A stretch of 29,115 bases of DNA from a virus (Duplodnaviria; Heunggongvirae; Uroviricota; Caudoviricetes). Shown here one piece after another: positions 16,537 through 24,323 of the stretch. Position numbers and translations under genes: made by a program. The stretch's first letter is position 1; each line of letters starts with the position of its first letter. The notes under the pieces are model-generated. The model was not told where the DNA came from. It worked only from the letters and a program-made list of their open reading frames with translations, and made no database searches. The stretch lies in the IMG/VR virus record IMGVR_UViG_2547132281_000011; one strand, given 5' to 3'.

Positions 16537-17254
16537 AACTGCTGCCTCCCCATGTGAGATATCGCGGTGCCAGTTCGCGCAGGATGCGCTGCGGATAATG
16601 GCGGTTCTCCCGCCAGCTGGCCGCATTGCGTCCGGCATTCACCGTGGCGACATGTCCGAACCAGCGGGTGCTGTCCAGACCTTTCTGTGATGCAAGCCGC
16701 CTGTCCCGTTGTACCCAGCCCAGACCACCGTTATAGCCTGACAGTGTCATGGCCATACGCTCGCAGTCGTTGGCGGCGCTGACGCGCTGCCACAGCCAGC
16801 GGTCATAGCTGACCAGCGCCCGGATGGCCCATGCCGGATTAAACGGCTCACGGCTGTTAAGTCCCGGCATCAGCTGACTTATCCAGTCGGCAGTGGCAGG
16901 CATGAACTGCGCCAGTCCCTGAGCACCAGCCGGCGAGACCGCATCAGGTCGCCAGCCGCTTTCCTGATGCAGTTGCGCGGCGAAATCTGCCACCGGCGCA
17001 GACAGTCCCCATTCAAGCCGGGCATTACGGATCACATCATCGCGATACTGCAGCGCAGCCTGCGGAGGCTGCGCTGCGCGGGCCTGACTGAAGAAGCCAC
17101 CACACCAGAGCAGCCAGACAATCACCAGGTTGCCAGCAAGCTGCCACCAGAAGCTGTATTTATCGTTACGTGGTTCGCCGTGTCTGATGGCGGTTACGCC
17201 CAGACCAAAGGCGAACAGAATAATGAGGGTGATTTGAGGCCAGTTCATGGTCAC
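16520..17254 (-). CDS. Membrane-anchored (SAR-type) endolysin with lytic transglycosylase domain
   Basis: N-terminal TM (WPQITLIILFAFGLGVTAI) then SLT motif AAQLHQESGWRPDAVSPAGAQGLAQFMPATA. Confidence 0.8.
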   Translation of the reverse strand: MTMNWPQITLIILFAFGLGVTAIRHGEPRNDKYSFWWQLAGNLVIVWLLWCGGFFSQARAAQPPQAALQYRDDVIRNARLEWGLSAPVADFAAQLHQESGWRPDAVSPAGAQGLAQFMPATADWISQLMPGLNSREPFNPAWAIRALVSYDRWLWQRVSAANDCERMAMTLSGYNGGLGWVQRDRRLASQKGLDSTRWFGHVATVNAGRNAASWRENRHYPQRILRELAPRYLTWGGSSCVASG

Positions 17255-17601
17255 AGTCCTGTTGCCACAGCCAGACAGACCGCTGCAACAATCAGTGCAC
17301 GGCGGATTAACGCAGCAGAAAATACAAGGTGAAGGCCGGTCTGCACAGGGAAACGCCCTTCAGCCATCAGCCTGTCTTCATGTTTCAGGTACTGACCGGG
17401 ACGGGCTTTGGGGAAGAGCGAACGGTCAAGCCAGTAACCCAGCACTGCTGCCAGCGTGATGAGTGCCAGCTTGTAGATCACAACAGGCAACTGCTGTGGC
17501 GAGACCAGAGCGATGGTGCCCAGCAACAGCACTGAGGTCAGCAGCCAGCCGCTGAGGCGAGGTTTTTTAACAGGGGGAATGAATTTTTTCAGGCTTTTCA
17601 T
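17251..17601 (-). CDS. Holin-like small membrane protein, first gene of the lysis/late operon
   Basis: 116 aa from ATG 17601 behind AAGGAG; multiple hydrophobic helices; ATGA overlap with endolysin gene. Confidence 0.5.
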   Translation of the reverse strand: MKSLKKFIPPVKKPRLSGWLLTSVLLLGTIALVSPQQLPVVIYKLALITLAAVLGYWLDRSLFPKARPGQYLKHEDRLMAEGRFPVQTGLHLVFSAALIRRALIVAAVCLAVATGL

Positions 17602-17687
17602 GTGTGTCTCCTTGTTTGGTGGAGACAGCATCACAAATGTGGCGGGATACGGATTTTAAAGCGCGTTATAAGTGTTCGCAGAGGGAA

Positions 17688-17704
17688 GCGACCAGAATGG
17701 TCGC
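17688..17704. promoter_or_regulatory. Perfect 7-3-7 dyad GCGACCAgaaTGGTCGC upstream of the lysis operon (candidate activator/operator site)
   Basis: Exact inverted repeat about 85 bp upstream of the holin-like start, in the divergent intergenic region. Confidence 0.3.
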
Positions 17705-17731
17705 ACACAAAACATAGGGGAGGCAAGCACA

Positions 17732-18055
17732 ATGACTGAACCGAAACAGTCTGGTATTAAAAAAGGGTTCCTCTTTGGGAGCAGAATCGGAGAGCAGAAT
17801 AAAACTTACACGCTAAGCTTGGATGCATGTTGTCCAACCGAAGCGATTATAGAGCTGAAAAACGTTCTGGTTGCACTTGAAGAGAGAAGAAGTCATTTCG
17901 CCAGCGGAGAAAACAATGTCATGCTAATTGGCGATGTGGCGGCGACATCACGATATAAAACCGCACCTAATCCTGCGATTCAGTTATCCTTCGACCAACG
18001 AATACTGGAAGCGGAATCAGCAGTTCCCAGAACGGTTCGTCCTCACCAGTCTTAA
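17732..18055 (+). CDS. Hypothetical protein
   Basis: 107 aa from ATG 17732 behind GGGGAGG; 3' end overlaps the convergent ORF 17967-18542 by 89 nt, so one of the two may be spurious. Confidence 0.35.
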   Translation: MTEPKQSGIKKGFLFGSRIGEQNKTYTLSLDACCPTEAIIELKNVLVALEERRSHFASGENNVMLIGDVAATSRYKTAPNPAIQLSFDQRILEAESAVPRTVRPHQS

Positions 18056-18542
18056 CTGGGGCTGCTTCACCCGACCAGTAAAGCCAAGCACGGTGATACA
18101 GTTCCAGCACCGGGCAATCACTGTTCAATAACCTCATATCTCCGCGATGCACCTGCTCATTTGTGATGACTTCATATATCGGTGCCGTTCTTATTTCGTC
18201 TTCGCCTCTCTCATCAGCCAGTAATTCCCTGAACTTCCTGACTTCACTCAGATGCTGACAGGCAAACAGTGACTGATAGCGGGAAGGTTTATCAGGAAAA
18301 TGGCTACGGCGAACTAACTCAAACACCAGACCGACCAGCAGACTTCTGCTGATTCCACTGTCATCTTCCATTTTAGGGCCGGGGTTATAGAGATAGTTAT
18401 ACCCGTGACTCGAAAGGCCATTGGGATACATCTGATGAAGAAAAGCGGCCAGTTCTGGCATTTCAGGCTCGTATTTTCCGGTAATTACATGACAAGGCGA
18501 AGGCAGACGACTAGCGGAATCAAGTGTGTAATACGTTCCCAT
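17967..18542 (-). CDS. Hypothetical protein, 191 aa
   Basis: Long ORF with AAGGA upstream; no motif I can recognise. Confidence 0.45.
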   Translation of the reverse strand: MGTYYTLDSASRLPSPCHVITGKYEPEMPELAAFLHQMYPNGLSSHGYNYLYNPGPKMEDDSGISRSLLVGLVFELVRRSHFPDKPSRYQSLFACQHLSEVRKFRELLADERGEDEIRTAPIYEVITNEQVHRGDMRLLNSDCPVLELYHRAWLYWSGEAAPVKTGEDEPFWELLIPLPVFVGRRITESQD

Positions 18543-18657
18543 TCAGAAAACAATCCTTATCGAACAAACACTGCACGTAGGTAATACATCCAGTAAATCG
18601 CGTTAATAGAAATCATGTATCTCAAAACTTCACTCTGAACTCTGACAGTGAAAGAAC

Positions 18658-18689
18658 GACCAGCCCGGTACCCGAACTCCGGGCTGGTC
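18658..18689 (-). terminator. Strong hairpin, putative terminator of the repressor-linked operon
   Basis: Perfect 11-bp stem GACCAGCCCGG / CCGGGCTGGTC with 10-nt loop; on the minus strand followed by GTTCTTTCACTG. Confidence 0.4.
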
Positions 18690-18951
18690 ATCGCCCCACA
18701 GGAATGCACTGTGAGCCGACCGAGGTTCAGTCAGTCTCGCGAGACCAGACTAGCCTGCCATATTTTTTATAATTATAAAAGGGTTACAGATTATGAAAAT
18801 GCAGACATTCCCCATCGCTCCATGGATTGGTTGTAAACGCCGCCATGCCAGACATATTCTGGCCGATGTTTCCTAGCACGCACGAATATGAGGCAACTGA
18901 CGAGAATAAATGATGCGTCAGAATGAACCGTCGACACCGTGCTTTCAGGTT

Positions 18952-19563
18952 TCAAAAATCTGGAGAAGGTATATCTATCTGACCGACGTTTCGTAACCAC
19001 ATCTCTTGCTTTGTTTCTTTATTGGTTCGGGCGATATCATTAGCATTGTATCTGCATGTTTTAACCGCAACCTCACGAACTCGTGCTATAGGAGTATTTG
19101 TGTAGAATTTAAGATCTTCCTCTACCGCTCGTATGGCGATAAGCCCTCCACTCTGAAAACCGCTGGTTACTTTTAAAAGATCAACTCCTTGGTTATAAAC
19201 GGCATTACATACGTTAGGGAACTCATCTTCTACAGTTTTGGGGATCATCAGCATATCAGGAAGACCCTGTAACACGTTATCTTCCTTTGGCCTCCATGCC
19301 CTTCCCAAAAAAGCTGTTATAGGTTGTGGTGTAGAAAGAAATGCCAATTCTATATAAAACAAACCACTGTAGTGATCGCGTAACGAATAGACTAGTAAAT
19401 GATCTTTTCCAGTTTTACTTGCATTGCTAAGTTTTATATCAAATGGTTTTTTCTGGTACTTAAGCAATCCATCAACTCCCGCATAATAATGCTTTGAAAC
19501 AGCAACAGAAAGTTGATGTACTTGGTTCGGATAATCTGTTCTATATCGTTTAATTAGCCCCAT
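18952..19563 (-). CDS. Hypothetical 203-aa protein, second gene of repressor-linked accessory operon
   Basis: ATG 19563 with GAGG 6-7 nt upstream, 20 nt after the upstream gene; AT-rich; no recognisable motif. Confidence 0.6.
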   Translation of the reverse strand: MGLIKRYRTDYPNQVHQLSVAVSKHYYAGVDGLLKYQKKPFDIKLSNASKTGKDHLLVYSLRDHYSGLFYIELAFLSTPQPITAFLGRAWRPKEDNVLQGLPDMLMIPKTVEDEFPNVCNAVYNQGVDLLKVTSGFQSGGLIAIRAVEEDLKFYTNTPIARVREVAVKTCRYNANDIARTNKETKQEMWLRNVGQIDIPSPDF

Positions 19564-19583
19564 AATAGCCTCGCAGTTATTTT

Positions 19584-20570
19584 CTATTTCAAAATATAAC
19601 GATATTTACTATCTGGAGTGTTTTGTTGGTCAAGTAATAGAGCTCTACATGGGGCGGTCAAAACACGGGCATAACGACCATCGGGGTTTATGTTGATGTA
19701 ACAAGTTTTCCCTTTAACACCATAAGATTCAGGTATTATTGCCTGTGTAGACACCGTGAATTTAAGGGTATGCCAGCCCGATTTTTGCTTGTAGCTTGAA
19801 ACCGAATGGAAATCATCTGAGTACTTATTTAACCCTGGAAACATGCTGCGTAATGCTGGGATGGAATCTTCTATTATTTTGTCGTTGGTTTTAATGTTAA
19901 AAACGCTGGTTTCAGTAGATGCTACTGCTTTAGCATTTCCCCATTTACCAGCGAACACAATCATTCCCACGAAAAATATTGCGACAAGAACTAACGCTCC
20001 CCCCAACACTACTACATGAGGCTTCCGGCTTCTGGTTGGTACAGTCGCGACTGATTTTGCCCCGCTGTCCGATGGAGGTGATAGAGTTTTACTCTCATCA
20101 CGAATATTCAGCAGATCATCAAAATAACCAAACACAGCCTGCAACTGCTCTTTGTCCAGGCCTTTAAGATGGGTTGTACCGAAATGCTTCAGACAGTATC
20201 TGTCACGGTCAAGACGATACCTAGGGTCAGTAAGCACCATTATTTTGCTGACCAGAAGATTACAGTCCTTCATATTCTGGATCTGTTGTGCATATCTCTG
20301 GAGGATCTCAACCGCACCATGATAATCAGCCGCAGTCATTTCATTAACTGTTTTGGTATTAAGTTTCGTGTGGATCGTCATCCATAGTTCGCGCTTACTT
20401 TCCCCCAGATCAACCAATTCATCCATCAATCTGTGTAAATCGCGTTTTTGCAGCAACGAAATTGGTTGCTGGGCAGAGGGAAGTATGTCAGCAGAATAGT
20501 TATGAATGGTAACATCACCGCTGACAACGTTACCCACATCTCCGTTAACTGTTTGCTTCTCTTTACTCAT
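19584..20570 (-). CDS. Single-pass membrane protein (cytoplasmic ~190-aa N-domain, one TM, ~115-aa C-domain), translationally coupled to repressor gene
   Basis: TM segment VVVLGGALVLVAIFFVGMIVFAG; start ATG overlaps repressor stop (ATGA at 20567-20570); N-terminus NGDVGNVVSGDVTIH echoes the repressor C-terminus. Confidence 0.65.
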   Translation of the reverse strand: MSKEKQTVNGDVGNVVSGDVTIHNYSADILPSAQQPISLLQKRDLHRLMDELVDLGESKRELWMTIHTKLNTKTVNEMTAADYHGAVEILQRYAQQIQNMKDCNLLVSKIMVLTDPRYRLDRDRYCLKHFGTTHLKGLDKEQLQAVFGYFDDLLNIRDESKTLSPPSDSGAKSVATVPTRSRKPHVVVLGGALVLVAIFFVGMIVFAGKWGNAKAVASTETSVFNIKTNDKIIEDSIPALRSMFPGLNKYSDDFHSVSSYKQKSGWHTLKFTVSTQAIIPESYGVKGKTCYININPDGRYARVLTAPCRALLLDQQNTPDSKYRYILK

Positions 20571-21028
20571 TTTCTCTTTGTATTTTTGTTCATTATTCCA
20601 CCTGTTCCTATGGTTACGTTACCTTTGATAACATTCCCCAGAACATCTCCATGAATAACCTGTTCCGCCCGTTCTCTGGAGGAGCCAGTCGTCAATGCCG
20701 ACAAAACTGAACCTTTGACTTGTAACGGTGCTTGCCGGTAGTGCTGAAGTAACTCCATTTCATCACGTGATAAAGTTATACCTGATGATTCCCCAGTAAG
20801 AATGAACTGTACGTTGGCCCCAATTCTTGCAAAGGCTGCAAGTAACTCACCTCCGGGAACTGCAACCCCTCGTTCATATTTCCCCCACATTTCTCTTGAA
20901 ACGCCACAAAGGGCTGCTACTTCAGCCTGCTTGAGTGATAACCGCGAACGCTCAGCTTTGAACCGCGACGCGCAAAGAGAATCAAAATTCACATAAACCT
21001 CATTGACAATGAGAACAATAGTTCTCAT
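20567..21028 (-). CDS. Prophage repressor, XRE/Cro-CI-type HTH (functional analogue of Mu c)
   Basis: HTH motif LSLKQAEVAALCGVSREMWGKYERG; divergent from the early operon; start codon lies within the early-promoter operator region, leader apparently very short. Confidence 0.75.
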   Translation of the reverse strand: MRTIVLIVNEVYVNFDSLCASRFKAERSRLSLKQAEVAALCGVSREMWGKYERGVAVPGGELLAAFARIGANVQFILTGESSGITLSRDEMELLQHYRQAPLQVKGSVLSALTTGSSRERAEQVIHGDVLGNVIKGNVTIGTGGIMNKNTKRK

Positions 21029-21031
21029 AAT
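21004..21031 (+). promoter_or_regulatory. Early promoter (Pe-like), sigma70-type
   Basis: TTGACA (21004-21009), 16-nt spacer, CATAAT (21026-21031), about 45 nt upstream of the ner-like ATG. Confidence 0.55.
21010..21027. promoter_or_regulatory. Operator: perfect 18-bp palindrome TGAGAACAATAGTTCTCA
   Basis: Exact 7-4-7 dyad filling the spacer of the early promoter and abutting the repressor start codon. Confidence 0.55.
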
Positions 21032-21078
21032 CTATCACATATAAAACAAACATCATTGCATCAACAAAGGAGACAACA

Positions 21079-21267
21079 ATGACTTCCGAACAAGTTAAAA
21101 CTCTCTTCCGTCAGCGTGGTATCACGTTTACCCGCTGGGCCGAAGAACACGGCTACAGCCGCAATGAGGTCTATCGTGTTCTCAATGGACAGACCAAAGC
21201 TCGTTACGGCAAAGCCCATGAAATTGCCGTAAAGCTGGGATTAAAACCCACGTCAAATGCGGCATAA
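21079..21267 (+). CDS. Small Ner/Cro-like DNA-binding protein, first gene of early operon
   Basis: 62 aa, AAGGAG RBS, HTH-like FTRWAEEHGYSRNEVYRVLNG; position as Mu ner. Confidence 0.55.
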   Translation: MTSEQVKTLFRQRGITFTRWAEEHGYSRNEVYRVLNGQTKARYGKAHEIAVKLGLKPTSNAA

Positions 21268-21319
21268 ATTTTCCATATATGCAACAGGTTATCACATATT
21301 GCAAAAATGGAAATGTGAC

Positions 21320-21628
21320 ATGAGTAAAGTAAATATCTCCAGTTCCGGGACCCGCATCCTACGTGTACTCAAAGCTCTACGCGGTCACTCTCTGAACGGT
21401 GTTTCTAACGGTGAACTGGCATCAGCCCTAGATGAGTCCCCGGCGAACATCAATCGAGCACTCAATACCCTTATCGAAGAGGGACTAGCCCTGAAACTGG
21501 AAAACGGGCGTTTCGCACCAGGCATCCAGTTGCTGCAGATCGCCATGGCCCACAGTAACGAGATGGCACGTGCACAGGATCGCATTAACGAAATCAACCA
21601 ACGTGTTATTTCAGGTAGTCGTTTGTAA
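21320..21628 (+). CDS. Winged-helix-like DNA-binding protein
   Basis: 102 aa from ATG 21320; TRILRVLKALRGHSLNGVSNGELASALDESPANINRALNTLIEEGL resembles wHTH regulators; start uncertain. Confidence 0.45.
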   Translation: MSKVNISSSGTRILRVLKALRGHSLNGVSNGELASALDESPANINRALNTLIEEGLALKLENGRFAPGIQLLQIAMAHSNEMARAQDRINEINQRVISGSRL

Positions 21629-22553: not shown

Positions 22554-24323
22554 ATGAATGCTGCCCTGACTGAACGACTGGTTTATGTCGCCCGCGCGGC
22601 ACGTGACGCGGGGCATGGTAAACGCGGTGCAATATACGACGCGGCCTGTGCTGAACTTGGCATGTCCCGCGCCACTCTGCTGCGCAGGCTGAAGGAGGTA
22701 TCTGTGACTGATAAACGCAAAAAACGCGCCGATGCCGGGCGCAGCGCCCTGACCCGCGACGAAGCCGCGCTGATATCTGCCACACTGCGTGAGGCCACCC
22801 GCAAGAACGGTAAGCGTCTCTATTCCATCGCAGATGCAGTGGAAACCCTGCGGGCTAACGGCTTTATCTCCGCAGGCAGAACAGATGAAACCACCGGTGA
22901 GTTTTTCCCGTTGTCCGAAGATGCCATCAGTCGTGCCTTGCGTAACTATGGCCTGCACCCGGAACAACTGGATGCCCCTGCGCCGCATACCGAAGTGGCC
23001 AGTCTGCATCCCAATCACGTCTGGCAGATTGATGCCTCGCTCTGCACGCTTTACTACCTGAGCAATGGACACAAAGGGCTGCAGGTGATGGACAGCGCGA
23101 AGTTCTACAAGAACAAACCCGCTAACCTTGCCCGTATCGCCAGTGACCGCGTGTGGAGTTACGAGATTACCGACCATGCCAGCGGCTGGATTTACGTTGA
23201 GTATGTGACGGGTGCGGAATCCGGTGAGAACCTGTGTTCTGTGCTTATCAACGCCATGCAGGAGCGTGGCGGCGCAGACGTGCTGCACGGCGTGCCGAAA
23301 ATACTCTATCTCGACCCCGGCTCGGCAAACACCGCGGGTATGACGAAAAACATGTGCCGCTCACTGGGCATCGACCTGATAGCGCACAAGCCGCATAACG
23401 CCCGCGCCACCGGACAGGTGGAAAAGGCGCGTGACATTATCGAACGCAAGCTGGAGCCGGGTCTGAAGTTCCGGCCGGTTCACAGTCTGGAAGAACTCAA
23501 CGCGCTGGCCGCGAAATGGCGCAGCCACTTTAACGCCACGGCTGTTCACAGCCGCCACGGTAAAACCCGCACGGATATCTGGCTGAAGATTACTGCTGAG
23601 CAGCTGAAAAAAGCGCCTTCCGTTGAGGTATGTCGTGAACTGGCTGTGGCGGCACCAGAACTCCGCAAAGTCACGCCAAAACTTCGTGTCTCGTTCCGGG
23701 GCACTGAATTTGACGTATCAACGGTACCGGGCGTACTGGTTGGTGAAAAACTGATGATTACCCGTAACCCATGGCGCAGCGATGTGGCACAGGTGGTTCT
23801 GACCGGTGAGGACGGCCACGAGACGTTCTTCCTGGTCGAAGAGGTCAGAAAGAACGAGTTTGGCTTTGCTGAAGGCGCGGCGGTATTTGGCGAAAGTTAC
23901 AAAGCCCTGCCGGAAACCCCGGCACAGATGGCGGCAAAAGAAACCGAAGCGCTGGTTACCGGTACAGACAACGCCGCAGATGCAGCCGCCGCACGCAAGG
24001 CGAAGGCGCTGCCGTTCGGCGGGCGGCTTGACCCGTATAAACATATCGACGACACCACACTTCCGGCCTATATGCCGAAGCGTGGTCAGGCCTCTGACGT
24101 ACGCGGGCCGCGCACTGAACAACGTCCCATGACTCATGTGGAGGCCGCGAAAGCCCTGCGCGATAAGTTCAGCGCCGACGGCCTTACCTGGACGCCGGAA
24201 CATTACCGCCAGTTAACGGCACAGTACCCGGACGGCGTACCGGAAGCCGCACTGGATGAAGTCATGGCCACGCTGACCACACCGGCCCGCAGCAGTGTTA
24301 TCAGCATTGTTAACGGCAACTGA
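22554..24323 (+). CDS. DDE transposase, Mu-type (MuA-like)
   Basis: 589 aa; rve-type core with candidate DDE residues (HVWQIDAS ... LYLDPGSANT ... downstream Glu); GGAGG RBS; followed by overlapping AAA+ ATPase gene. Confidence 0.85.
   Translation: MNAALTERLVYVARAARDAGHGKRGAIYDAACAELGMSRATLLRRLKEVSVTDKRKKRADAGRSALTRDEAALISATLREATRKNGKRLYSIADAVETLRANGFISAGRTDETTGEFFPLSEDAISRALRNYGLHPEQLDAPAPHTEVASLHPNHVWQIDASLCTLYYLSNGHKGLQVMDSAKFYKNKPANLARIASDRVWSYEITDHASGWIYVEYVTGAESGENLCSVLINAMQERGGADVLHGVPKILYLDPGSANTAGMTKNMCRSLGIDLIAHKPHNARATGQVEKARDIIERKLEPGLKFRPVHSLEELNALAAKWRSHFNATAVHSRHGKTRTDIWLKITAEQLKKAPSVEVCRELAVAAPELRKVTPKLRVSFRGTEFDVSTVPGVLVGEKLMITRNPWRSDVAQVVLTGEDGHETFFLVEEVRKNEFGFAEGAAVFGESYKALPETPAQMAAKETEALVTGTDNAADAAAARKAKALPFGGRLDPYKHIDDTTLPAYMPKRGQASDVRGPRTEQRPMTHVEAAKALRDKFSADGLTWTPEHYRQLTAQYPDGVPEAALDEVMATLTTPARSSVISIVNGN

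What the first reader, a model, noticed from the sequence alone, without database searches (positions are those of the whole stretch)
17732..18542. Convergent, 3'-overlapping pair of unknown ORFs between the lysis cassette and the repressor operon
A 107-aa plus-strand ORF with a strong GGGGAGG RBS and a 191-aa minus-strand ORF overlap by 89 nt at their 3' ends. Neither resembles anything I recognise, and they sit exactly where the two prophage arms meet. Either one is spurious or this is a compact antisense-overlapping pair (for example a toxin-antitoxin-like or regulatory arrangement).
Basis: seen in the sequence. Interest (0 to 1): 0.45.

Follow-up and report, generated by a model that had tools for sequence, protein, structure and literature searches.

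The report
Phage ADP-ribosyltransferase-like gene with tail-to-tail partner
Both reading frames are real genes: together they form a roughly 1-kb cassette carried by several kinds of temperate phage, in which an enzyme-like protein of the ADP-ribosyltransferase fold (DUF2441) always sits tail-to-tail with a small, undescribed and usually unannotated protein, most likely as an effector and the factor that controls it.

Summary
In detail: ORF 17732-18055 (+, 107 aa, GGGGAGG ribosome-binding site) and ORF 17967-18542 (-, 191 aa) overlap by 89 nt.

Neither ORF is spurious.
- **The 107-aa protein.** It matches no described family. Its non-overlapping core is under purifying selection (dN/dS about 0.17-0.19, with synonymous sites saturated). 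RefSeq leaves it unannotated in 31 of 32 complete E. coli genomes.

The two genes travel together as a cassette (about 17675-18648) in BcepMu-like, Mu-like and lambdoid or 186-like prophages. They are always convergent, with stop codons between -107 and +20 nt apart. The coding overlap itself is not conserved: several lineages have a 77-85-aa partner with no overlap, so the 29-aa tail here is a lineage-specific extension.

A second DUF2441 clade has an unrelated small partner in the same tail-to-tail position.

My best reading, which is inferred and not shown, is an ART-fold effector plus a cognate small controlling protein (antidote-like), whose transcripts must overlap at their 3' ends. It is a new variant of ART toxin-antidote modules, and its function is untested.

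The parts
17732..18055 (+). Small partner gene (107 aa). The conserved core is about aa 12-77 (17765-17962). Residues 79-107 are a lineage-specific tail read antisense through the end of DUF2441.
   Evidence: ORF. Homologues: 16 then 59 proteins. NG86 dN/dS 0.17-0.19 on the core. 77-85-aa forms lack the tail. No family hit in Pfam, PADLOC, PHROGs, NCBIfam or PDB. AlphaFold2 (AF2): beta-hairpin 12-31 plus helix 35-51, pLDDT 54.
17717..17723 (+). Shine-Dalgarno sequence GGGGAGG, 8 nt before the ATG.
   Evidence: Sequence. SD-like sequences precede the start in divergent relatives: GAGGAAA, CGGAG, AGGAGG.
17967..18542 (-). DUF2441 / BC2332-like protein of the ADP-ribosyltransferase fold (191 aa).
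17967..18055 (.). 89-nt coding overlap of the two 3' ends. Plus-strand codon position 2 lies opposite minus-strand position 3.
   Evidence: Stop-to-stop distance in relatives runs from -107 to +20 nt. Synonymous-site depression in DUF2441 is seen only among overlapping lineages and is weak, with best p 0.029.
17675..18648 (.). Extent of the two-gene cassette, defined against a related prophage (L034) that has 30 nt at this place.
   Evidence: blastn of L034 against the window: homology stops at 17674 and resumes at 18649. GC is 47-49% here against 54-63% in the late genes.
17688..17704 (.). Short inverted repeat GCGACC-AGAAT-GGTCGC at the left cassette edge. It resembles the arms of the terminator at 18658-18689 and may be a recombination scar. 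It is not kept in close relatives.
   Evidence: Sequence. Alignment. Comparison with the terminator sequence. Inference.
17635..17674 (-). Conserved block upstream of the holin gene. It contains CTTTAAAATCC on the minus strand and is the probable late (lysis operon) promoter region. It forms the left neighbour of the cassette.
   Evidence: Invariant across divergent loci, including L026, L030, L032 and L034. The promoter assignment is inferred.
18648..18689 (-). Intrinsic terminator in the DUF2441/holin sense: an 11-bp stem (18658-18668 / 18679-18689) followed by GTTCTTTCAC. It lies immediately upstream of the cassette, so DUF2441 is not simply co-transcribed with the repressor operon.
   Evidence: scan; four pairs with compensatory changes, and G-U changes that only pair in the minus sense.

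Best explanation
**Shown.** The locus is a self-contained two-gene accessory cassette of about 1 kb. It lies between the late (lysis) promoter and the immunity region of a BcepMu/Mu-like transposable prophage of E. coli. It encodes a DUF2441 (BC2332-like) protein with the ADP-ribosyltransferase fold, and, convergently, a small protein of a narrow, undescribed family. Both are genuine genes under purifying selection. They move together between unrelated temperate-phage backbones. Their stop codons are never more than 20 nt apart, which leaves no room for a terminator between them.

**Inferred.** The DUF2441 protein is an NAD+-using effector or toxin acting on a still unknown target. It is probably kept by prophages as a conflict (exclusion, defence or addiction) function. 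The small protein is its cognate controlling factor, most likely an antidote that binds and neutralises it. Because each transcript must run antisense into the other gene, the relative strength of the two promoters adds an RNA-level layer of mutual control (transcriptional interference or duplex RNA).

The 89-nt overlap of the reading frames in this window is a lineage-specific C-terminal extension of the small protein. The module does not need it.
For: - **Both genes are real.** DUF2441 is supported by Pfam, PHROG and structure. The small-gene core has dN/dS 0.17-0.19 with saturated synonymous sites and a third-position excess.
- **The genes are linked.** The pair is present in every related locus, including Arsenophonus Mu-like and Pseudomonas CII/S24-repressor phages where the flanks are unrelated. 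The same 32 of 5,426 complete E. coli genomes carry both. Cassette edges are defined against L034.
- **The tail-to-tail junction is conserved.** Stop-to-stop distances are -107, -89, -80, -77, -4, +4, +8, +9, +15 and +20 nt.
- **A second partner family occupies the same position.** DUF2441 proteins at 37-39% identity have an unrelated small all-beta partner at gap 0 to +22.
- **Presence and absence are asymmetric, as expected for an antidote.** Partner homologues occur without DUF2441 (L034/L035) and next to a DUF2441 gene split by an insertion (L005/L013). No clade-A DUF2441 was seen without a partner.
- **The partner evolves faster than DUF2441.** Identities are 80-86% against 93-95%, and 29% against 71% in Yersinia.
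- **Fold neighbours.** After 2AUA, the nearest structures are mostly ART toxins that have protein antidotes: DarT, MbcT, RES and ParT, plus Rhs TreX, which pairs with an immunity protein.
- **ART classification.** DUF2441 is placed in the Pfam ART clan and in SCOP d.166.1.6 (PMC7955679, PMC3000352).
Against: - The genes are convergent, unlike nearly all protein-protein toxin-antitoxin pairs.
- The small protein has no recognisable DNA-binding or antitoxin domain. Its model is poor (pLDDT 54) and gives no meaningful fold match.
- Partner subtypes have been exchanged between DUF2441 lineages (L030), which argues against a very tight cognate interface.
- More distant DUF2441 proteins (33-35% identity) have no such partner, so the fold is not necessarily toxic.
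- There is no hit to any PADLOC defence model.
- The transcripts, promoters and antisense overlap are inferred. The consensus scan found no sigma-70 promoter for either gene.
Confidence: 0.45

Rival explanations
1. The pair is functionally linked, but the small protein is not an inhibitor. It could be a positive partner (activator, specificity or stability factor, or target mimic). Alternatively both proteins could act together as a phage counter-defence or host-takeover module, for example an ART that modifies a host immunity protein as AcrIF11 does.
For: - Co-occurrence and the conserved junction fit any functional partnership.
- Partner subtypes are exchangeable between DUF2441 lineages.
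- In Salmonella the partner domain is fused to an N-terminal region with a Walker A motif (GPTGSGKS), which suggests an activity of its own.
- Distant DUF2441 proteins do without a partner.
Against: - Partner homologues persist where DUF2441 is lost or disrupted. That is easier to explain for an antidote than for a cofactor.
- Convergent arrangement with obligatory antisense overlap suggests antagonistic rather than coordinated expression.
- The cassette lies next to the immunity region and co-oriented with the repressor, where lysogen-expressed exclusion genes usually sit.
Confidence: 0.27
2. The two genes are independent morons that share a hot spot, with no functional connection. The tight junction is only compaction.
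For: - The site is an accessory-gene hot spot. Relatives carry Dam methylase, lipoprotein-like or other genes here.
- The small-protein homologue occurs next to Dam without DUF2441 in L034.
Against: - The pair is kept together in three unrelated backbones, and in all 32 E. coli genomes that carry either gene.
- The junction geometry holds across pairs whose DUF2441 is 52-95% identical (small core 26-86%) to this window's.
- A second, unrelated partner family occupies the same tail-to-tail position in another DUF2441 clade.
Confidence: 0.1
3. What matters is transcription of the plus strand rather than its protein. Convergent transcription silences DUF2441 or insulates the lysis operon from read-through, and the small ORF is secondary.
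For: - No terminator can fit between the genes.
- DUF2441 is co-oriented with and upstream of the holin operon, and no strong terminator lies between them.
- There is a weak depression of synonymous change in the overlapped end of DUF2441 in overlapping lineages.
Against: - The protein sequence of the core is clearly under purifying selection while synonymous sites are saturated.
- The core domain is kept in a fusion protein.
- The Shine-Dalgarno sequence is maintained.
Confidence: 0.08
4. The 107-aa plus-strand ORF is a chance open frame and is spurious.
For: - RefSeq does not annotate it in 31 of 32 complete E. coli genomes.
- It has no family match.
- The last 29 codons are antisense to a conserved gene.
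Against: - The frame, its start and a Shine-Dalgarno sequence are kept down to 26-60% identity.
- dN/dS is 0.17-0.19 in the non-overlapping part, with differences by codon position of 19/18/51.
- Homologous domains occur in proteins of other architectures.
Confidence: 0.03

Closest known systems
BC2332 of Bacillus cereus (PDB 2AUA), Pfam DUF2441 / SCOP d.166.1.6 'BC2332-like' in the ADP-ribosylation superfamily
   Different: Sequence identity is only 20%. The phage clade has extra conserved N- and C-terminal elements (Y4, D8, S44-x-H46-G47, WE173xLIPLP) outside the Pfam model. No function is known for any member, so membership says nothing about activity.
ART-fold toxin / protein antitoxin pairs: DarT-DarG, ParT-ParS, MbcT-MbcA, RES-Xre, CmdTAC
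   Same: Each is a two-component module built on an ART-fold protein plus a cognate neutralising partner. They are often prophage-borne and act in phage defence (DarTG and CmdTAC: PMC9503650, PMC9519451). These toxins are the fold neighbours after 2AUA. The partner evolves faster and can occur as an orphan.
   Different: The genes here are convergent rather than in one operon. The partner is not a macrodomain, Xre or HTH protein, or any known antitoxin. The DUF2441 family is distinct from DarT and RES. There is no PADLOC hit. Toxicity and neutralisation are untested.
Type I toxin-antitoxin systems with convergent, 3'-overlapping transcripts on prophages (bsrG/SR4, yonT/SR6 of B. subtilis SPbeta)
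   Same: Both are prophage-borne gene pairs in a tail-to-tail arrangement where the two RNAs are complementary at their 3' ends (yonT/SR6: PMC5848175). Here a spacer of at most 20 nt forces such overlap, which is an inference.
   Different: There the toxin is a small membrane peptide and the antitoxin a non-coding RNA. Here the putative toxin is a 191-aa soluble enzyme-like protein, and the antisense partner is itself a protein-coding gene under purifying selection.
Phage ADP-ribosyltransferases used against the host (T4 Alt/ModA/ModB; anti-CRISPR AcrIF11)
   Different: There is no sequence relationship. Those proteins act alone or are packaged in the virion, and they have no conserved convergent partner.

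Membership tests
Pfam DUF2441 (PF10386) / BC2332-like | Score above the Pfam gathering threshold | tested here: met
   31.8 bits against a cut-off of 25, E 1.7e-7, residues 71-158. All 27 homologues carry PF10386.
Pfam DUF2441 (PF10386) / BC2332-like | Same fold as the family's solved structure, 2AUA | tested here: met
ADP-ribosyltransferase superfamily (active enzyme) | ART beta-sandwich fold | tested here: met
ADP-ribosyltransferase superfamily (active enzyme) | Catalytic H-Y-E or R-S-E type triad in the NAD+ pocket | tested here: inconclusive
   Invariant H46-G47, R88, D135 and E173 exist.
ADP-ribosyltransferase superfamily (active enzyme) | NAD+ binding and ADP-ribose transfer or NAD+ cleavage | not testable with these tools
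   Needs biochemistry.
Type II toxin-antitoxin system | Toxin and antitoxin genes co-transcribed as one operon | tested here: not met
   The genes are convergent in every locus.
Type II toxin-antitoxin system | Antitoxin has a DNA-binding domain or belongs to a known antitoxin family | tested here: not met
   No Pfam, NCBIfam, PADLOC, PHROG or PDB match. The low-confidence model gives no fold match.
Type II toxin-antitoxin system | Toxin arrests growth and the antitoxin protein neutralises it by binding | not testable with these tools
   Indirect support only: strict co-occurrence, orphan partners, and a faster-evolving partner.
Type I toxin-antitoxin system (3'-overlapping convergent type) | Antitoxin is a non-coding antisense RNA | tested here: not met
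   The antisense partner is a protein-coding gene with dN/dS 0.17-0.19.
Type I toxin-antitoxin system (3'-overlapping convergent type) | Toxin is a small hydrophobic peptide | tested here: not met
   It is a 191-aa globular alpha/beta protein.
Type I toxin-antitoxin system (3'-overlapping convergent type) | The two transcripts are complementary at their 3' ends | not testable with these tools
   Inferred from a stop-to-stop distance of -107 to +20 nt and the absence of a terminator between the genes. Needs strand-specific RNA-seq or Term-seq.
Known or candidate anti-phage defence systems (PADLOC-DB v2) | Match to a system's protein models | tested here: not met
   No hit at E <= 0.1 for either protein.

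The most novel reading that the evidence does not exclude
The cassette is a new kind of phage-borne conflict module. It combines an ART-fold (DUF2441) toxin or effector with a new family of small protein antidotes. Instead of sharing an operon, the two genes are wired tail-to-tail, so that their mRNAs silence each other as well. That makes it a hybrid of protein-level (type II-like) and antisense (type I-like) control. It switches between lysogeny and induction, or fires on superinfection.
Probability: 0.3. Interest if true: 0.7.

Novelty: new variant of a known kind. Interest (0 to 1): 0.55.

Why it matters
DUF2441 has had a crystal structure since 2005 but no function. A strictly conserved partner gene and a defined, mobile 1-kb cassette give a direct experimental handle: co-expression, toxicity, phage challenge and ADP-ribosylation assays.

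The partner gene is systematically missed by genome annotation, so this linkage cannot be seen in databases.

If the effector/antidote reading holds, it would add an ART family to the repertoire of prophage conflict systems. It would also give an example of a toxin-antidote pair controlled through convergent transcription. If it fails, the pair is still a clean case of a conserved, unannotated small gene overlapping a known one.

Tried and rejected
- **Family searches for the small protein.** Pfam, PADLOC, PHROGs, NCBIfam and a PDB profile search found nothing.
- **Domain fusions of the small-protein core.** Longer homologues and the Salmonella 243-aa protein gave only Walker-A-level hits and no informative domain.
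- **Viral structure library for DUF2441.** It returned only uncharacterised phage proteins.
- **Rfam on 17200-21400.** No credible hit.
- **Consensus promoter scan.** No sigma-70 promoter was found for either gene, so promoters remain unassigned.
- **The 190-aa gene that replaces DUF2441 in L034.** It is not a divergent DUF2441 (hhalign probability 0.1%).
- **Literature.** DUF2441, BC2332 and PF10386 appear only in lists of ART-clan families. The phage-sRNA paper PMC13502914 is unrelated.
- **Is the overlapping tail itself selected?** The result is inconclusive. DUF2441 synonymous change in its last 28 codons is lower only among overlapping lineages, with small counts and best p 0.029.
- **Idea that the small protein regulates the late promoter.** Rejected, because it travels with DUF2441 into phages with other lysis and late regions.

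Full report
**1. The observation**

- An ATG at 17732 is preceded by GGGGAGG (17717-17723). It opens a 107-codon frame ending at 18055.
- A 191-codon frame on the minus strand runs from 18542 to 17967.
- The two frames share 89 nt (17967-18055).

The window is 100% identical over this stretch to the chromosome of E. coli ATCC 43896. It is a transposable, Mu/BcepMu-like prophage.
- The late genes (tail, head, terminase, SLT endolysin, holin) run leftwards up to 17634.
- A leftward repressor operon lies at 18952-21028.
- A rightward early operon follows, with an rve transposase, a MuB-like AAA protein, Gam and GemA.

The pair does sit at the junction of the two arms.

**2. Both ORFs are genes**

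*The minus-strand ORF.*
- RefSeq annotates it as a DUF2441 domain-containing protein.
- It scores above the Pfam threshold for PF10386 and matches phrog_5663 at 2e-65.
- It has 27 homologues, all carrying that domain.

*The plus-strand ORF.* It matches no family in Pfam, PADLOC, PHROGs or NCBIfam. It is nevertheless a real gene.
- It has protein homologues down to about 30% identity: 16 with a single-sequence query and 59 with a profile.
- The family is narrow: 19 representative clusters among 1.84 billion proteins.
- Start codon, reading frame and a Shine-Dalgarno sequence are kept although the nucleotide sequence diverges.
- In the 78 codons that do not overlap DUF2441, window against L006 gives dN/dS 0.17 and L006 against L016 gives 0.19.
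- Window against L016 has pS 0.89 with pN 0.24, and differences by codon position of 19/18/51.

This is the signature of a translated gene, not of an antisense artefact. Even so, RefSeq leaves it unannotated in 31 of the 32 complete E. coli genomes that contain it.

**3. The overlap is not the conserved feature, but the tail-to-tail junction is**

In every related locus the small gene and DUF2441 are convergent. The distance between their stop codons varies by lineage.

| Lineage | Stop-to-stop distance (nt) |
|---|---|
| E. coli P0022 type | -107 |
| This clade | -89 / -80 |
| Arsenophonus / Pantoea | -77 |
| One Arsenophonus endosymbiont | -4 |
| Pseudomonas (partner 77 aa) | +4 |
| L042 | +8 |
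| Salmonella | +9 |
| Yersinia (partner 85 aa) | +15 |
| Proteus and others | +20 |

- The conserved core of the small protein ends at about residue 77, exactly where the overlap begins in this window.
- One close relative (P0011, 82 aa) also lacks the tail.
- In the overlap, plus-strand codon position 2 lies opposite DUF2441 codon position 3. The tail's sequence is therefore dictated largely by DUF2441.
- DUF2441 has invariant residues there (E173, P177-L178-P179).

I tested whether the tail imposes extra constraint.
- Among overlapping lineages, synonymous change in the last 28 DUF2441 codons is lower than in the rest of the gene (0.25-0.40 against 0.49-0.57).
- Among non-overlapping lineages it is not lower (0.43-0.90 against 0.50-0.59).
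- Counts are small and the best uncorrected p is 0.029, so this is inconclusive.

What is conserved is that no more than 20 nt ever separates the two genes. No terminator fits between them, so the two transcripts must be complementary at their 3' ends. That step is inferred, not shown.

**4. A mobile two-gene cassette**

A related Enterobacter prophage (L034) has 30 nt where this window has 17675-18648.
- To the left, homology ends just after a conserved block upstream of the holin gene. I take that block to be the late promoter.
- To the right, homology resumes at an intrinsic terminator.

The 974-nt insert contains only the two genes and their flanks. Its GC content (47-49%) differs from that of the late genes (54-63%).

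The same pair occurs in several backbones.
- In BcepMu-like prophages of many Enterobacterales, between holin and Dam or the repressor.
- In an Arsenophonus Mu-like element, directly after Mor.
- In Pseudomonas phages with a CII (CP76) protein and an S24-type repressor, where none of the flanking genes is related.

In complete E. coli genomes, the same 32 of 5,426 carry both genes.

**5. Further patterns in the pairing**

- *A second partner family.* DUF2441 proteins at 37-39% identity lie in a lambdoid prophage between the lysis genes and terminase, and on two viral contigs. They have a different, unrelated small all-beta partner in the same tail-to-tail position, at gap 0 and +22.
- *Distant members lack a partner.* DUF2441 proteins at 33-35% identity have no such partner.
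- *Orphan partners.* Partner homologues survive without DUF2441 (L034/L035, downstream of Dam). They also survive beside a DUF2441 gene split by a 1.2-kb insertion in Erwinia tracheiphila. I found no clade-A DUF2441 without a partner.
- *Different rates.* The partner evolves faster than DUF2441: 80-86% against 93-95% in close relatives.
- *Partner exchange.* The Yersinia DUF2441 is 71% identical to this one, but its partner is only 29% identical. That partner is 92% identical to the partner of a different DUF2441 lineage.
- *A fusion.* In one Salmonella lineage the partner core is the C-terminal 64 residues of a 243-aa protein. Its N-terminus carries a Walker A motif, GPTGSGKS.

**6. What the proteins are**

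*DUF2441.*
- The model is confident (pLDDT 89).
- This agrees with the placement of DUF2441 in Pfam's ART clan and of BC2332 in SCOP d.166.1.6.
- Invariant residues (H46-G47, E75, R78, R88, D135, E173) suggest an active site. I could not assign them to the canonical triads.
- No function has been published for any member.

*The small protein.* It is predicted only as a beta-hairpin, a helix and probably one or two further strands. Confidence is low and there is no fold match.

**7. Mechanism**

*Shown.* A conserved, mobile, tail-to-tail pair of genuine genes, one of which has the ART fold.

*Inferred.* DUF2441 is an NAD+-dependent effector or toxin, and the small protein is its cognate controlling factor, most likely an antidote. 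The forced 3' complementarity of the two mRNAs adds antagonistic RNA-level control. Four observations support this.
- The asymmetry of presence and absence.
- The faster-evolving and exchangeable partner.
- The existence of two unrelated partner families.
- The location beside the immunity region, and fold neighbours that are mostly toxins with protein antidotes.

I give this reading about 0.45.

The main rival, at about 0.27, is that the small protein is a positive partner, or that the pair is a counter-defence module. Mere adjacency (0.1), an RNA-only role for the plus strand (0.08) and a spurious ORF (0.03) are disfavoured.

**8. Comparison with known systems**

The pair works most like ART toxin/antitoxin modules (DarTG, ParST, MbcTA, RES-Xre, CmdTAC). 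It is not a member of any of them.
- The family is different.
- The partner is unrelated to any known antitoxin.
- The genes are not in an operon.
- There is no PADLOC model hit.

Its geometry recalls the convergent type I systems of B. subtilis prophages, such as yonT/SR6 (PMC5848175). Here, however, both strands encode proteins and the putative toxin is not a membrane peptide.

I therefore rate it a new variant of a known kind, with function untested.

**9. Context seen along the way**

- DUF2441 lies directly downstream of a conserved intrinsic terminator (18648-18689, minus sense), so it is probably not co-transcribed with the repressor operon.
- That terminator closes a highly conserved, strongly folding stretch of about 120 nt. 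This stretch also occurs in L034, where the cassette is absent. It therefore belongs to the phage backbone, not to the cassette.

Noticed in passing
window 18648-18762, minus strand (promoter-like TTTTCA-16-TATAAT at 18799-18772): A non-coding stretch of about 120 nt that is more conserved (92% mean identity) than the neighbouring genes across BcepMu-like prophages. It contains a 12-nt palindrome GTCTCGCGAGAC, a CACAG/CTGTG hairpin, and an 11-bp terminator hairpin followed by a T-run in the minus sense. RNAalifold gives -59.8 kcal/mol with four compensatory pairs, and the G-U changes pair only in the minus sense. The single-sequence z-score is -2.5. There is no Rfam hit. It is also present in L034, which lacks the DUF2441 cassette. 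It is a candidate phage sRNA or leader/terminator insulating the late operon.
   Followed up: partly
window 17732-18055 (+) and the same place in 32 complete E. coli genomes: NCBI's annotation leaves the conserved small gene unannotated in 31 of 32 RefSeq genomes. It is called 'hypothetical protein' only in NZ_CP061764.1. In ATCC 43896 the locus-tag series skips RS06015 and RS06005 around it.
   Followed up: yes
window 18952-19563 (-), compared with the transposase at 22554-24323 (+): The 203-aa 'hypothetical protein' in the repressor operon is a paralogue of the rve catalytic core of the phage's own transposase (residues 152-345; 23% identity, E 4e-11). The first catalytic Asp position is replaced (QID becomes QLS). 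It is possibly a transposase-derived regulator or inhibitor expressed with the repressor.
   Followed up: partly
window 18793-18870 (+): Remnant of the 5' end of a Dam (MethyltransfD12) gene. Relatives (KP12, L023, L030, L032, L034) have a full Dam gene starting at this ATG. Here the homology stops after about 70-80 nt, and the hyp203/hyp328 genes follow. This marks a recombination junction in the immunity region.
   Followed up: partly
L034 4001-4276 and L035 239-514: A close homologue (80% identical to the Yersinia-type partner) of the small protein without any DUF2441 gene. It lies directly downstream of and co-oriented with Dam, followed by an unrelated convergent 190-aa gene. It is either an orphan partner or a hint of a link to Dam.
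   Followed up: partly
L026 5577-6308 (-) (protein P0097; also P0095): In a Salmonella BcepMu-like prophage the partner domain is the C-terminus of a 243-aa protein. Its N-terminus has a Walker A motif (GPTGSGKS) but no assignable family.
   Followed up: partly
L005 4352-5563 (Erwinia tracheiphila) and L013: The DUF2441 gene is interrupted by an insertion of about 1.2 kb, while the small partner gene stays intact. The insertion was not characterised.
   Followed up: no
window 19584-20570 (-): The 328-aa protein of the repressor operon (phrog_10002) has an N-terminal region resembling the flagellar regulator Flk (NCBIfam E 1.6e-11, far below the cut-off). It also has a predicted membrane segment. 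Its C-terminal part is shared with smaller lipoprotein-like genes at the same place in relatives.
   Followed up: no
window 17635-17674: A block upstream of the holin start codon, GGAGACAGCATCAC ... GGATTTTAAAGCGCGTTATAAGTG, is conserved even in prophages with divergent neighbours. It is probably the activator-dependent late promoter of the lysis-morphogenesis operon.
   Followed up: partly
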